Made by a program: the position numbers and the translations under genes. Below the pieces are notes generated by a model. That model saw only the letters and a list, made by a program, of their open reading frames with translations, was not told the origin of the DNA and did not search any database. DNA of 51,777 nucleotides from Escherichia phage FritzSarasin: sequence record MZ501069; one strand, given 5' to 3'. Positions 42,189 through 46,269 of the stretch are shown here, piece after piece. Positions within the stretch are counted from its first letter, which is position 1; each line of letters begins with the position of its first letter.

Positions 42189-42742
42189 TGACGGTTAGCG
42201 CCAGGATTGTGATCGAAATAATCAAAAGTAATCATTCGTAATCAAATCAAGTCAAAATGATGATTGCCTTTGCAAATTTGATGAGAAAAGTAATCACGTT
42301 TAATCATTGGTTGCAGGGGAGATAGTGAAACCTTCCCCTCTTGCCTCACTTTTTTGCCTGGCTGTCAGTGGTTGTTGTCTTTTGTTCACCCCTGTTACCG
42401 ATTTCAGGCGGCGTGTTTCCGCGCGGTTTTCCGGTGTAGCGAAAACGGAAAAAACAAAGAAAATCCTTTATAATACATTGAAAATAAAGATTATTTATTT
42501 ATATATATCTATAATGTTTTCTTTTTGTTCTCACTGTTACAGTGCTTTTTGTTGGTTATGGTGTGGTTGTGTGTGGGCATATATGGATAGTTGCGCGCGC
42601 GGCGGATTGCATATGTATATATACTTTTTCCGGCGGATTGCGTTAACAGCGTGAACAGAAAAATAACAGCCGTGAAATCAATAACTTGCGCATGATTTTG
42701 TAGTTTTTTGATATTGGTAACGTTTTGAATACAACAAAAACA

Positions 42743-42770
42743 TTGACACGCACCAAATAGCTTTTATAAT
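42743..42770 (+). promoter_or_regulatory. consensus sigma70 promoter (TTGACA-N16-TATAAT)
   Basis: Perfect -35 and -10 hexamers about 30 nt upstream of ATG 42802. Confidence 0.65.
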
Positions 42771-43799: not shown

Positions 43800-43985
43800 A
43801 TGAAAACGAAATTAGTCCATAAATCAGAAATCAAGATCGGCGATACTGTGATTCACAACGGAGAGCTTAGAACGGTTGGCAAAGAGTCAATAAGCCACGA
43901 TGAATTTATGGGGATCTTGTTGTTCGGTGACTCTTATCGTCTTGGTTACAAGATGGTTGAGCTTGTGGAAGAAGTGAAATTCTAA
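43800..43985 (+). CDS. hypothetical small protein
   Basis: 61 aa; stop TAA embedded in the next motif copy. Confidence 0.5.
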   Translation: MKTKLVHKSEIKIGDTVIHNGELRTVGKESISHDEFMGILLFGDSYRLGYKMVELVEEVKF

Positions 43986-44005
43986 ATAGCACTTTTTGTT
44001 AAAAC
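43985..44005 (+). promoter_or_regulatory. conserved promoter-module motif copy (rightward)
   Basis: AATAGCACTTTTTGTTAAAAC then CCAGGCATAAT. Confidence 0.55.
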
Positions 44006-44084
44006 TCAAAAACGATAACCAGGCATAATAAATCACATAGGGCGGCACGGCGTCGCCCAGTTAAACCAATCAGGAGAAAGCACC

Positions 44085-44978
44085 ATGTTAAAACTTGCTG
44101 ACATTAAATTCCCGATCACCTTCGAATCTCGTGGTGTTGGTCATTACGTTTTTACCGATGAGAAAACATGCCATAACGTTTGGTTGCACAGCGATAAGTT
44201 AAGCCCATCAACAATGGAGATTCAGCACTTTATTGATGCGCATAATCAGCACTACAACTCAATCCGTGACTACGGCTACGCAATGCCAGGCTACACATGC
44301 TTGCACTACAAGCCATATAAGGGCCAGGTGTTACCAGTGCGCTCACCGGAACGTGCAGAGATTCCGATGGTCCACATGAAAACCTGCGACTACAAAAAGC
44401 TGTGGTGCTTAAGTGTGGACAATATCAAGTATCCGATCACGTTCTACACGGTTGGTAATTCAACGATTCGCTTCACATCGCGCGACAATGGCGTTTATAG
44501 CGATGGTACGAAATCAGAGTTGAAAGTTGATTTCTTTGTCAACGGTCACAACAAATTCAATCCGCACAACGAAGAGGATAAAGTGTACTACGTGGAAGAC
44601 ATTACAAAACACTTGTTTGGAGAAACTCCATTCGGCGGCGGAAAGACGTCAATTCAAAAAATCATTGGCGAGGAGATCCACAAAGCGGCTGCCGAAATGA
44701 AAGCGCCTGGAGGCTGGCGTATTGATAAGAGCGCCTTTGCAAATCAAGAAATCGTAACGCAGGGCGCGATTGAAGATATGCCAGTTGCAGCCACGCTAAA
44801 AGGAGTCCGGCTTGATGATGGTGTGTGGTTTGAAGTAACGGCCACACCAAAGACGATCGAGATTCATGATGATGTTGTTATCCTCCTGCTTCACTACGGC
44901 GGCACTAAAAATCGGACTGTTGCAGGTGAGATCAGCATCAAGCGCGGAACGATGGTTAAGTGGAAGGTGAAGATTTGA
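44085..44978 (+). CDS. hypothetical protein with internal tandem repeat
   Basis: 297 aa; N-terminal repeats IKFPITFESRGVGHYVFTDEKT and IKYPITFYTVGNSTIRFTSRDNG. Confidence 0.6.
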   Translation: MLKLADIKFPITFESRGVGHYVFTDEKTCHNVWLHSDKLSPSTMEIQHFIDAHNQHYNSIRDYGYAMPGYTCLHYKPYKGQVLPVRSPERAEIPMVHMKTCDYKKLWCLSVDNIKYPITFYTVGNSTIRFTSRDNGVYSDGTKSELKVDFFVNGHNKFNPHNEEDKVYYVEDITKHLFGETPFGGGKTSIQKIIGEEIHKAAAEMKAPGGWRIDKSAFANQEIVTQGAIEDMPVAATLKGVRLDDGVWFEVTATPKTIEIHDDVVILLLHYGGTKNRTVAGEISIKRGTMVKWKVKI

Positions 44979-45054
44979 GTTTGTTCACTGCGGCGCACGT
45001 CGCCGCATGGATCGGATTGTTTGCCTACCTGTTTAGCTTTTATTGAGGTGAGAG

Positions 45055-45207
45055 ATGGCTACCTGGATTTTGCTGATTCTTATGATTGATGGCGGCGTTG
45101 ACCATATCGAAATGAATAGCCAGCAATCTTGCATTGAGGCACGAGAACAGATCAAGAACGACAACAGGTTTTATGCGTACACTCACACGCTATGTATTAA
45201 GAAATAG
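45055..45207 (+). CDS. putative small membrane peptide (not in ORF track)
   Basis: 50-aa ORF with RBS GAGGTGAGAG; hydrophobic N-terminus; stop TAG embedded in the next motif. Confidence 0.35.
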   Translation: MATWILLILMIDGGVDHIEMNSQQSCIEAREQIKNDNRFYAYTHTLCIKK

Positions 45208-45507: not shown

Positions 45508-45715
45508 TCGCGTCAAGCACAGGTTTACTGATAACCACGGCGACGCGATTGATGTATACAAGTTCGGCGATCGCGTGTTTATTGATGGCACGTTTGAAGG
45601 TGGGCGCAGGCCGGATTTTAGGTCGATACTTACCGTTGACCAAGTGCGCAAGCTGGCAGATAAGTTAAATGATCTGGCAGATGAAATAGAATACAAGCAA
45701 ATCCATTTTAATTGA
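45494..45715 (+). CDS. hypothetical small protein
   Basis: 73 aa; overlaps upstream gene. Confidence 0.5.
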   Translation: MKTNNRVKHRFTDNHGDAIDVYKFGDRVFIDGTFEGGRRPDFRSILTVDQVRKLADKLNDLADEIEYKQIHFN

Positions 45716-45726
45716 TAGGTTTGATA

Positions 45727-46269
45727 ATGAAAAAATACACTTTCGAACTGTGGGGCAAAAAGTACGAATTAATCACCAGCAAGCCGATTGTTATCGTTGA
45801 CCTGGACGGCACACTATCGGACGGATCGCATCGTTTGCATTTGCTGCCAACTGAAAACTTGCACCTTACGGAATCGTGGCGCGAGTTTAACAGGGCCGCC
45901 GCCGGAGATTCACCTATTAAAAGCACTATCGCGGTTATTAACGGTTTATGGGTGTCGGGATTTGCCATCGTCATCTTGACCGGACGCAGCGACGAGGTTC
46001 GCTATGAAACCTGCAAATGGTTGAATGAGAACGGCGTGAAGTTTGACGAAATCATCATGCGCCGCCAGGAGGACAACCGAAAGGATACGGTTATCAAAGA
46101 AGAAGCCTTGCGCGCTATTGGCCTGGACAACATTGTTTGCGCCTTTGACGATTCGCCGAACGTGGTTAAGCACTTCCGCAGCCTGGCAATCACAACCTAT
46201 CAGGTCACGGAATACGACAAGCCGCACGCTCACCTGCAATCTCACGGCGTGGAGGAGTTGCAGAAATGA
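45727..46269 (+). CDS. HAD-superfamily phosphatase (nucleotidase / polynucleotide 3-phosphatase-like)
   Basis: About 180 aa; HAD motif I IVIVDLDGTLSDG, motif II ILTGR, C-terminal FDDS. Confidence 0.6.
   Translation: MKKYTFELWGKKYELITSKPIVIVDLDGTLSDGSHRLHLLPTENLHLTESWREFNRAAAGDSPIKSTIAVINGLWVSGFAIVILTGRSDEVRYETCKWLNENGVKFDEIIMRRQEDNRKDTVIKEEALRAIGLDNIVCAFDDSPNVVKHFRSLAITTYQVTEYDKPHAHLQSHGVEELQK

What the first reader, a model, noticed from the sequence alone, without database searches (positions are those of the whole stretch)
44085..44978. 297-aa early protein with an internal tandem repeat and no recognisable domain
The N-terminal half contains two copies of a roughly 110-aa unit (IKFPITFESRGVGHYVFTDEKT... 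and IKYPITFYTVGNSTIRFTSRDNG...), suggesting an internally duplicated fold. It is the largest gene in the rightward early array and has its own promoter module.
Basis: seen in the sequence. Interest (0 to 1): 0.45.

Follow-up and report, generated by a model that had tools for sequence, protein, structure and literature searches.

The report
Two-copy variant of T1 gp70 protein
This is a real, conserved gene of a T1-like coliphage: it makes a three-domain version (two diverged copies of a small orphan domain plus a small beta-barrel) of the uncharacterised phage T1 gp70 protein, so the repeat is genuine but the protein is an ordinary accessory phage gene of unknown function.

Summary
The window is a T1-like siphophage genome (Drexlerviridae, about 96% nt identity to JLBYU26, vB_EcoS-95 and pSf-1). 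ORF 44085-44978 (+, 297 aa) is real: it has an AGGAG ribosome-binding site, more than 300 homologues, and dN/dS of about 0.23.

The repeat is real but smaller than described. It is a roughly 65-aa domain ("A", aa 1-67 and 109-172), not a 110-aa unit. An HMM built only from single-copy relatives hits both copies (4e-16 and 1e-25).

The two copies are only 22-24% identical to each other. Each is closer (38-48%) to A domains of other phages, so this is not a recent tandem duplication. It is either an old one or a fusion of diverged alleles.

The protein belongs to the T1 gp70 / PHROG 7116 family. That family has only 43 clusters at 50% identity among 1.84 billion proteins, no Pfam match and no published function.

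Domain shuffling, copy-number variation, mosaic alleles and a natural deletion point to a dispensable, non-enzymatic binding protein (host takeover or counter-defence). That function is inferred, not shown.

The parts
43985..44004 (+). Conserved 20-nt upstream motif AATAGCACTTTTTGTTAAAA. It starts at the stop codon of the preceding 61-aa gene.
   Evidence: 20 copies in the window at up to 3 mismatches against 0.02 expected. Copies point the same way as the downstream gene in the two early arrays. The motif is nearly invariant upstream of all 8 orthologues examined, and a related form (AGCACGAATTGTTAAAA) precedes T1 ST70 and the ADB-2 and Sazh genes.
44024..44029 (+). -10-like hexamer CATAAT of the module. 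It lies 19 nt after the motif, and 22 nt from the TTGTTA inside the motif, which is not canonical sigma-70 spacing.
   Evidence: Aligned modules show CATAAT, TATAAT, TATAGT or TAAAGT at the same distance, often preceded by TGG, which resembles an extended -10. The consensus promoter scan did not call it. Promoter function is inferred.
44040..44058 (+). GC-rich hairpin in the 5' leader (GGGCGGC-ACGGC-GTCGCCC).
   Evidence: Predicted RNA fold of -13.7 kcal/mol. The hairpin sequence itself (GGGCGGCACGGCGTCGCCC) is identical in all 8 orthologous loci. No T-run follows it, so it is not a classical terminator. Its role is unknown.
44072..44076 (+). Ribosome-binding site AGGAG, 8 nt before the ATG.
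   Evidence: Read directly from the sequence; the AGGAG itself is conserved in all orthologues.
44085..44978 (+). Coding sequence, 297 aa plus stop. Member of the T1 gp70 / PHROG 7116 family.
   Evidence: Overall dN/dS is 0.23 among 9 orthologues.
44085..44285 (+). A1, the first copy of the A domain (aa 1-67). It is a diverged subtype that lacks the NPxN motif.
   Evidence: HMM of single-copy A domains gives i-E 4.2e-16. Alignment A2 shows HNQH---YN in place of HNxxNPxN. The AF2 secondary-structure pattern is the same as for the second copy, but pLDDT is only 51-77 because the alignment is shallow there. dN/dS is 0.25.
44286..44408 (+). Segment between the two A copies (aa 68-108), basic, with three Cys residues.
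   Evidence: pLDDT is below 50, but only 2 sequences cover it in the alignment. It is well conserved among close orthologues (dN/dS 0.12) and replaced by different sequence in P0122. The pI is 9.2.
44409..44600 (+). A2, the second copy of the A domain (aa 109-172). It has the canonical motifs YPITF, TFTS and HNxFNPxN.
44601..44750 (+). Variable linker (aa 173-222).
   Evidence: Mostly low pLDDT. At least two unrelated allelic versions occur among close orthologues. dN/dS is 0.27.
44751..44975 (+). B domain (aa 223-297), a predicted SH3-like small beta-barrel with motifs IEDMPxGA, IE(I/V)HDD and GExxIKRGT.
44990..45006 (+). GC-rich hairpin just after the stop codon (GCGGCG-CACGT-CGCCGC), similar in sequence to the leader hairpin.
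   Evidence: Predicted fold of -15.1 kcal/mol. It is present only in those orthologous loci that also carry the downstream 50-aa ORF. In L004, L009, L010 and L012 the next promoter-like module starts directly at the stop codon.

Best explanation
**What it is (shown)**
- The gene encodes a three-domain protein, A1-A2-B, of the phage T1 gp70 (ST70) / PHROG 7116 family. This family is confined to T1-like phages.
- The standard family member is about 160-190 aa: one A domain (about 65 aa, three strands and a helix, no known fold relative), a variable linker, and one B domain (about 70 aa, SH3-like barrel).
- In this lineage (Warwickvirus/Hanrivervirus-like Tempevirinae) a second, diverged A domain plus a 41-aa connecting segment sits in front.

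**How it arose (inferred)**
- The two A copies are each closer to A domains of other phages than to each other.
- The extra copy therefore most likely came from an old duplication or from recombination between diverged alleles, not from a recent in-place duplication.

**How it most likely works (inferred)**
- It is a dispensable, non-enzymatic binding protein made from its own promoter-like module early in infection.
- The conserved B barrel would hold a conserved partner.
- The variable, copy-number-variable A domains would recognise a variable host or defence target.
- Two different A domains would give broader or stronger binding.
- This is the pattern expected of host-takeover or counter-defence accessory proteins.
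For: **Gene and family**
- Real gene under purifying selection in every segment (dN/dS 0.12-0.27), with a conserved ribosome-binding site and upstream module.
- Family membership: PHROG 7116 at 7.9e-77 and T1 ST70 at 6e-38.
- Same neighbourhood upstream of the pnk/phosphatase gene in JLBYU26, ADB-2, Sazh, KarlJaspers, LeonhardEuler and T1.

**Two A domains**
- HMM i-E values of 4e-16 and 1e-25.
- Copies not sisters: 22-24% identity to each other versus 38-48% to A domains elsewhere, and 0 of 500 bootstraps.

**Structure**
- A2 pLDDT 93-95 and B about 93.

**Modularity typical of accessory interaction proteins**
- Two A domains occur in at least three lineages: window/P0122, P0141/P0146, P0147/P0152.
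- A is joined to an unrelated C-terminus in P0154, an unrelated N-terminus is joined to B in P0161, and B occurs alone in P0151, P0155, P0156 and P0160.
- Allelic versions of the A1 loop, the linker and B are reassorted among close phages.

**Dispensability**
- P0153 is an in-frame fusion of the first 19 aa of the upstream 61-aa gene to the last 27 aa of this gene. That is a deletion of about 1 kb between short microhomologies.
- Some phages retain only fragments or only B (H72-H74).

**No sign of an enzyme**
- No enzyme family or catalytic signature was detected: Pfam gave nothing and PDB sequences gave nothing.
Against: - No experiment or published function exists for any member, so the function is inferred from architecture and evolutionary pattern alone.
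- B has several near-invariant acidic and His residues (E230, E259, H261-D262-D263, E282). These could be a metal or catalytic site rather than a binding surface.
- Early expression is assumed from position. The upstream module does not have canonical sigma-70 spacing, and the simple scan did not call it.
- P0153 comes from a metagenomic assembly, so viability of that deletion phage is not proven.
- The low confidence of A1 and of aa 68-108 in the model reflects a shallow alignment there, so their structure is not settled.
- The A1/A2 non-sister result rests on about 60 aligned columns. Accelerated divergence after an old in-place duplication cannot be excluded.
Confidence: 0.45

Rival explanations
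1. The protein is a nucleic-acid-binding or ribosome-binding regulator. The B barrel would work like the small barrels of translation factors and ribosomal proteins (EF-P/eIF5A domain I, uL2 C-terminal domain, Pelota N-terminal domain, Sm/LSm), binding RNA or the ribosome to redirect translation or mRNA fate. The A domains would add specificity.
Confidence: 0.17
2. The protein is a small metal-dependent enzyme. The near-invariant E230, E259, H261-D262-D263 and E282 of B would form a catalytic or metal site, for example for a phosphoesterase or nuclease-like activity acting with the neighbouring PNKP-type phosphatase gene.
For: E230 is invariant, and E259 and E282 are at least 90% conserved across the family. 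The HDD triplet (aa 261-263) is a conserved motif of the family consensus. A HAD phosphatase gene lies about 700 bp downstream in the same array.
Against: There is no similarity to any enzyme family in Pfam or the PDB. The fold is a 70-aa SH3-like barrel, which is rarely catalytic. HDD is replaced in several members: VDSE, VDGE, VDCN, INGN, SDG. B occurs alone as 66-81-aa proteins.
Confidence: 0.08
3. The extra N-terminal copy (A1 plus aa 68-108) is a functionless leftover of a recombination accident. Only A2-B, the gp70 equivalent, matters.
For: Most family members work with a single A domain. A1 has lost the NPxN motif. A1 is modelled with lower confidence.
Against: A1 and aa 68-108 are under purifying selection (dN/dS 0.25 and 0.12). 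The reading frame is kept in over 100 clusters at 87-96% identity. A1-type domains also function as the only A domain in P0123 and P0149. The low pLDDT is explained by only 2 sequences covering that region in the alignment.
Confidence: 0.08

Closest known systems
Phage T1 gp70 (ST70, YP_003874.1, 161 aa) and its relatives, PHROG 7116; labelled 'T1p70' in the Citrobacter phage Sazh annotation
   Same: Homologous over aa 109-296 (42% identity, E 6e-38; PHROG 7116 at 7.9e-77). Same A-linker-B order, same position in the array upstream of the pnk/phosphatase gene, and the same kind of upstream module. No known function.
   Different: The window protein carries an additional diverged A domain and a 41-aa connector at the N-terminus, giving 297 aa against 161-190.
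PHROG 10425: stand-alone B-domain proteins of 66-81 aa (for example P0151, P0156, P0160; Salmonella phage STSR3, Vibrio phage Vc1)
   Same: Same B domain with the same motifs (IEDMPxGA, IEVHDD, NIKRGT).
   Different: They have no A domain at all, which shows that B can act on its own.
SH3-like small beta-barrels of translation proteins (EF-P/eIF5A domain I, uL2 C-terminal domain, Pelota N-terminal domain)
Gp54 of phage Bas11, a 66-aa SH3-like beta-barrel protein of a Drexlerviridae phage that directly triggers the CapRel(SJ46) defence protein (PMC11578894)
   Same: A small, non-essential barrel protein of unknown primary function in a related Drexlerviridae phage, with its own promoter. The authors suggest it may inhibit another defence system. 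It is a useful functional analogy.
   Different: No sequence similarity: a family profile against all PDB chains found nothing at E<=10 (the paper reports crystal structures of Gp54, but I did not confirm that they are in this PDB copy). It is a different gene. No CapRel link is shown for the window protein.
Promoter-early stem-loop (PeSL) cassettes of T4-type phages (recalled from Arbiol et al. 2010, not checked here)
   Same: Repeated promoter-plus-hairpin modules stand in front of small early genes. Gene cassettes come and go between relatives, for example the 50-aa ORF downstream of this gene.
   Different: Different sequence and different phage family. Neither promoter activity nor a role in recombination was tested here.

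Membership tests
T1 gp70 / PHROG 7116 family | Significant match to the family profile | tested here: met
   PHROG 7116 at E 7.9e-77, profile positions 1-173 of 173 on aa 108-296.
T1 gp70 / PHROG 7116 family | Homology to the founding protein, T1 ST70 | tested here: met
   BLASTP E 6e-38, 42% identity over aa 109-296. A second local match of the T1 A domain to aa 1-56 has E 1e-5.
T1 gp70 / PHROG 7116 family | N-terminal A domain followed by C-terminal B domain | tested here: met
   A2 and B are in the family order, and one extra A domain is prepended.
T1 gp70 / PHROG 7116 family | Conserved genomic position: rightward array of small genes upstream of the pnk/phosphatase gene | tested here: met
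   Seen in JLBYU26, ADB-2, Sazh, KarlJaspers, LeonhardEuler and T1. In the window the phosphatase gene is at 45712-46269.
SH3-like small beta-barrel fold (B domain) | Five- to seven-stranded barrel of about 55-70 residues that superposes on known SH3-like barrels | tested here: met
KOW / EF-P N-terminal sequence families | Match to the Pfam profile above the gathering score | tested here: not met
   No Pfam family at E<=1 for the window protein. Among 22 diverse members no family is hit by more than one member.
Gp54(Bas11)-type CapRel trigger | Sequence homology to Gp54(Bas11), whose crystal structures are reported in PMC11578894 | tested here: not met
   A profile of 22 family members against all PDB chain sequences gave 0 hits at E<=10. 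I did not separately confirm that the Gp54 entry is in this PDB copy. Gp54 residues named in PMC11578894 (G24, I25, W43, W53) have no counterpart pattern in B.
Gp54(Bas11)-type CapRel trigger | Activates CapRel(SJ46) when co-expressed | not testable with these tools
   Requires an experiment.
Recent in-situ tandem duplication | The two copies are each other's closest relatives | tested here: not met
   A1 and A2 are 22-24% identical. A1 is 48-51% identical to P0123_a, and A2 is 43-46% identical to P0133_a and P0159_a. The A2 type was nearest to A1 in 0 of 500 bootstraps.
Known anti-defence or defence protein families | Match to a curated anti-defence or defence model | not tested
   PADLOC and NCBIfam were not scanned. 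Pfam and PHROGs gave no functional label. All source names are 'hypothetical protein'.

The most novel reading that the evidence does not exclude
The A domain is a previously undescribed small fold that serves as an exchangeable, copy-number-variable recognition module of a counter-defence (or defence-triggering) protein. Carrying two diverged A domains on one B barrel would let a single early protein engage two variants of a host immune sensor or takeover target. Repeated gain of a second A domain in at least three phage lineages would then record an arms race.
Probability: 0.12. Interest if true: 0.6.

Novelty: new variant of a known kind. Interest (0 to 1): 0.3.

Why it matters
About half of the genes of T1-like phages have no known function, and these phages are now standard tools for discovering bacterial immune systems (BASEL collection, SECphi27).

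**What this work adds**
- It gives one of the larger unknown early proteins a defined domain map: A, A, B.
- It links the protein to T1 gp70.
- It shows the A domain has no structural relative in the PDB.
- It shows the family evolves by domain gain, loss and allele shuffling.

That makes the protein a reasonable candidate for screens of phage proteins that inhibit or trigger host defences, and the A domain a candidate for structure determination.

In itself the finding is modest. The gene is already present, unremarked, in many deposited genomes, and no function can be assigned.

Tried and rejected
**Searches that found nothing**
- Pfam on the protein and on 22 diverse relatives: nothing consistent.
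- Family profile against PDB chain sequences: 0 hits at E<=10.
- Foldseek against the PDB with the full model: nothing below E 0.6.
- Profile search with a B-domain alignment in the 5.8-billion-protein set: only 11 close relatives, with no new architectures or names.
- The search for related loci with the diverse alignment failed because no stretch was conserved enough. The single-protein scan gave 10 loci.

**Literature**
- No paper on T1p70, PHROG 7116 or bas06_0069 gives a function.
- Known Drexlerviridae triggers are other proteins: Gp54 of Bas11 (66 aa), Gp77 of SECphi27 (Erf-like) and the 128-aa Mokosh trigger of SECphi27.
- The stand-alone SH3 of the T1 lysis module (PMC13164509) is a different gene in a different module.

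**Ideas rejected**
- A zinc site in aa 68-108. C72, H74, C100 and C107 are conserved only among close orthologues. The C100/C107 segment is replaced in P0122, and H74 is lost in P0123.
- An acidic DNA mimic. The pI is 7.7 and net charge about +2.
- A secreted or membrane protein. No N-terminal hydrophobic segment is seen in the sequence.
- The hits P0158 and P0163 (1309 and 729 aa), which are unrelated repeat proteins matched by chance at E of about 1e-4.
- P0121 / L014, which suggested a longer 375-aa form. It is a frameshifted, internally duplicated assembly.
- A first bootstrap script timed out. It was rerun in simpler form.

Full report
**Context**

The window is a complete or near-complete genome of a T1-like siphophage (Drexlerviridae, Tempevirinae). 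The 2 kb around the finding is 95-97% identical in nucleotides to Escherichia phages JLBYU26, vB_EcoS-95, tonnikala and tonijn and to Shigella phage pSf-1. In all of them the gene is annotated 'hypothetical protein'.

The gene lies in a rightward array of small genes (about 42.7-51.8 kb) that diverges from a leftward array. It is the largest ORF of that array. Its neighbours are all of unknown function (DUF7174, DUF4884-like, DUF7421, several PHROGs without function). The exception is a HAD phosphatase of the PNKP type about 700 bp downstream.

**The observation**

ORF 44085-44978 (+) encodes 297 aa. It starts with ATG and is preceded by AGGAG at 44072-44076.

A local self-alignment of the N-terminal part against the rest gives score 55 for aa 6-56 versus aa 113-160. 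Shuffles give 26.8 +/- 4.4 (maximum 49), and 0 of 1000 reach the observed score.

A stronger and independent test uses an HMM built only from the N-terminal domains of single-copy homologues. It contains no window-type protein. It hits the window protein twice:
- aa 1-67, i-E 4.2e-16
- aa 109-172, i-E 1.2e-25

Phage T1 gp70 also aligns to both places.

The repeat is therefore real. The homologous unit is about 65 aa with a period of 108 aa, not a 110-aa unit. The stretches aa 68-108 and aa 173-222 are unrelated to each other.

**Family**

PHROG 7116 (unknown function) covers aa 108-296 at 7.9e-77, and PHROG 10425 covers aa 228-294.

| Search | Result |
|---|---|
| Word-indexed search of 5.8 billion proteins | 311 homologues; the best 120 are 87-96% identical (one artefactual 374-aa cluster at 72%), and every name given is 'hypothetical protein' |
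| Exhaustive phmmer, 1.84 billion representatives at 50% identity | 43 hits at E<=1e-3, 27 at E<=1e-10 |
| tblastn of 50,697 phage records | 229 records, nearly all T1-like phages of Escherichia, Shigella, Salmonella and Citrobacter |

In the tblastn search, 113 records cover at least 80% of the query. Most of the lower-identity records listed cover only aa 109-296.

The family is therefore small and phage-restricted. The founding member is T1 ST70 (161 aa; 42% identity, E 6e-38). It is called T1p70 in the Sazh annotation. It sits in the same array upstream of the pnk gene in T1, ADB-2, Sazh, KarlJaspers (bas06_0069) and LeonhardEuler (bas13_0066).

**Anatomy**

Alignment of 22 diverse members and of 32 A-domain segments defines two domains joined by a variable linker.

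- **A (about 65 aa).** Motifs are (I/V)x(F/Y)PITF, TFxS, GxW, (Y/F)FxxxHNxxNPxN and DYxY.
- **B (about 70 aa).** Motifs are IEDMPxGA, RIE(V/I)HDD and GExNIKRGT. E230 and P233 are invariant in both family alignments. M232, A236, I258, E259 and E282 are at least 90% conserved in both, as are L268 and G288 in the full-length alignment and R287 in the B-domain alignment.

The window protein reads A1 (1-67), connector (68-108), A2 (109-172), linker (173-222), B (223-297). A1 is a diverged subtype in which NPxN is deleted.

**Structure prediction**

The AF2 model of the full protein has mean pLDDT 73 and pTM 0.37, which indicates independent domains.

| Region | pLDDT |
|---|---|
| A2 | about 95 |
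| B | about 93 |
| A1 | 51-77 |
| aa 71-104, 181-189 and 199-208 | below 50 |

The low values for A1 and the connector are at least partly technical, because only two sequences cover them in that alignment. A1 shows the same strand-strand-helix order as A2.

A2 modelled alone with 32 A-domain sequences gives pLDDT 93.4 and pTM 0.82, with three strands followed by an 11-residue helix.

**Fold comparison**

- Foldseek against the PDB finds nothing below E 0.6. The top weak hits are chromo, Cren7 and SAWADEE barrels.
- I attribute these roughly 55-residue alignments to B, the only barrel in the model, although the tool does not report which query residues aligned. B is thus a generic SH3-like small barrel. 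This is a fold resemblance, not evidence of homology.

**Origin of the second copy**

A1 and A2 are 22-24% identical to each other. By contrast:
- A1 is 48-51% identical to the single A domain of P0123 and 33-41% to those of P0134 and P0149.
- A2 is 43-46% identical to those of P0133 and P0159.

This holds after removing the shared N-terminal MLKLxDI. In 0 of 500 column bootstraps was an A2-type domain the nearest relative of A1. The two copies are therefore not a recent in-place duplication.

P0123 (210 aa) is an A1-type domain joined directly to the same linker and B. The window architecture therefore equals a P0123-like protein with an A2 inserted, or P0123 is a deletion of A2. Either way, recombination between diverged alleles is the simplest reading, and this is inferred.

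Two-A proteins also exist in two other, unrelated sub-lineages: P0141/P0146 and P0147/P0152. Other combinations occur as well:
- A with a different C-terminus (P0154)
- a different N-terminus with B (P0161)
- B alone (P0151, P0155, P0156, P0160)

**Selection and mosaicism**

dN/dS (Nei-Gojobori, ratio of means over all pairs) among nine full-length orthologues:

| Segment | dN/dS |
|---|---|
| Overall | 0.23 |
| A1 | 0.25 |
| Connector (aa 68-108) | 0.12 |
| A2 | 0.15 |
| Linker (aa 173-222) | 0.27 |
| B | 0.19 |

All parts, including the extra copy and the 'disordered' connector, are under purifying selection.

The orthologue alignment shows at least two very different allelic versions each of the A1 loop, the linker and B. 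These occur in different combinations in different phages, which indicates intragenic recombination.

**Dispensability**

P0153 (46 aa) is an exact in-frame fusion of the first 19 residues of the upstream 61-aa gene to the last 27 residues of this gene. The junction falls at TTCAC / ACGG microhomologies present at both sites in the window. This is a natural deletion of about 1 kb that removes almost the whole gene.

Some phage records retain only aa 1-38 or only B. This suggests the gene is not essential, though the deletion comes from a metagenomic contig.

**Expression signals**

The gene is preceded by a copy of a repeated module. The motif AATAGCACTTTTTGTTAAAA (43985-44004) begins at the previous stop codon, and CATAAT (44024-44029) follows 19 nt later.

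The 20-mer occurs 20 times in the window at up to 3 mismatches, against 0.02 expected. In the aligned copies a -10-like hexamer, often preceded by TGG, stands at the same distance. In many copies a hairpin fills the spacer and a CATCGAAACGAAAC-like leader follows.

The TTGTTA inside the motif is 22 nt from the hexamer, so this is not canonical sigma-70 geometry, and the simple scan did not call it. It may be an extended -10 promoter with an upstream factor site. This is untested.

The copy in front of this gene lacks the spacer hairpin. It has a GC hairpin in the leader instead (44040-44058, -13.7 kcal/mol). The hairpin itself is identical in all eight orthologous loci and the rest of the upstream region is nearly so. 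Related modules precede T1 ST70 and the ADB-2, LeonhardEuler and Sazh genes.

'Early' remains an inference from position.

**What it probably does**

Nothing links any member to a function. Searches of the paper library for T1p70, PHROG 7116, bas06_0069, Drexlerviridae early or anti-defence genes and SECphi27 escape mutants turned up only other proteins.

The evidence is as follows:
- two small non-catalytic-looking domains
- one conserved core barrel that can stand alone
- one variable domain that changes in copy number and partner
- mosaic alleles
- apparent dispensability
- a private promoter-like module in an array of small accessory genes

This fits best a non-enzymatic binding or adaptor protein acting on host or host-defence components early in infection. 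I hold the anatomy and family assignment at about 0.9. I hold this functional reading at about 0.35-0.45.

Rival explanations:

| Rival | Basis | Confidence |
|---|---|---|
| RNA- or ribosome-binding regulator | The barrels B resembles | about 0.17 |
| Small metal-dependent enzyme | The conserved E/H/D residues of B | about 0.08 |
| Functionless extra copy | Contradicted by dN/dS | about 0.08 |

**Comparison with known things**

It is a member of the T1 gp70 / PHROG 7116 family, and all four defining features tested were met. It is an N-terminally extended variant of that family.

It is not a member of KOW, EF-P or any Pfam family. It is not related in sequence to Gp54 of Bas11, a small barrel protein of a related Drexlerviridae phage that triggers CapRel (PMC11578894). 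Gp54 is only a functional analogy.

**Verdict**

The finding is real and the description is partly right. The object is an ordinary, already-sequenced but uncharacterised accessory gene. Its modest points of interest are the orphan A domain and the recurrent gain of a second A domain. Interest 0.3; new variant of a known kind.

Noticed in passing
window, 20 sites: 2092, 6718(-), 10472(-), 21101(-), 26738, 28299, 30788, 31859, 35104(-), 37266(-), 37940(-), 40139(-), 40866(-), 42169(-), 43522, 43985, 45203, 46471, 46842, 49651: A 20-nt motif, AATAGCACTTTTTGTTAAAA, occurs 20 times against 0.02 expected. It usually starts at the stop codon of the preceding gene. Then come a spacer of about 19 nt (often a GC hairpin), a TATAAT-like hexamer (often TGG-prefixed), a CATCGAAACGAAAC-like leader, a ribosome-binding site and the next gene. 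Spacing from TTGTTA to the hexamer is 22 nt, which is not canonical. On the opposite strand, hairpin plus TTTTAACAAAAAG looks like an intrinsic terminator. Three copies (6718, 10472, 21101) point against the large ORFs of the 0.5-22.6 kb block, which are all on the + strand. The arrangement resembles T4-type promoter-early stem-loop cassettes (from memory).
   Followed up: partly
window 44979-45207 (hairpin 44990-45006 plus 50-aa ORF 45055-45207): The hairpin and the 50-aa hydrophobic ORF (PHROG 5579) downstream of the target gene form an insertion/deletion cassette. They are present in L001, L006, L007 and L011. They are absent in L004, L009, L010 and L012, where the next promoter-like module starts directly at the stop codon.
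   Followed up: partly
protein P0153; window 43800-43856 joined to 44895-44978: This 46-aa metagenomic protein is an in-frame fusion of the upstream 61-aa gene (first 19 aa) with the last 27 aa of the target gene. It results from a deletion of about 1 kb between TTCAC/ACGG microhomologies.
   Followed up: yes
L014 3001-4452 (IMGVR_UViG_2974632794_000001) and protein P0121: This copy of the gene has a frameshift after aa 20 or so and a head-to-tail duplication of about 560 nt of A2-linker-B, with a frameshifted B. It is probably an assembly or sequencing artefact, or a pseudogene. It is not a longer natural isoform.
   Followed up: partly
window 45712-46269 (+): Relatives label this 185-aa gene 'polynucleotide kinase'. 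It matches only the HAD phosphatase domain of PNKP (PF25109, 3.1e-20) and no kinase domain. It starts with TTG in the ORF list.
   Followed up: no
window 42743-42770 (+), and divergent region 42190-42768: A perfect sigma-70 consensus promoter (TTGACA, 16 nt, TATAAT) stands just before the first gene of the rightward array (42769). It differs in type from the repeated modules used further along the array.
   Followed up: no
orthologue alignment of the target gene (window, L001, L004, L006, L007, L009-L012): At least two very different allelic versions each of the A1 loop (aa 24-42), the linker (aa 186-222) and the B domain occur in different combinations in closely related phages. This is a sign of intragenic recombination.
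   Followed up: partly
phage collection hits: 12-18 records named 'Campylobacter phage' (for example C4 and A14a, host Campylobacter jejuni) carry this E. coli T1-like gene. C4 is 83% identical in protein over the full length, and A14a keeps only the first 38 aa. The host labels look doubtful for T1-like coliphages.
   Followed up: no
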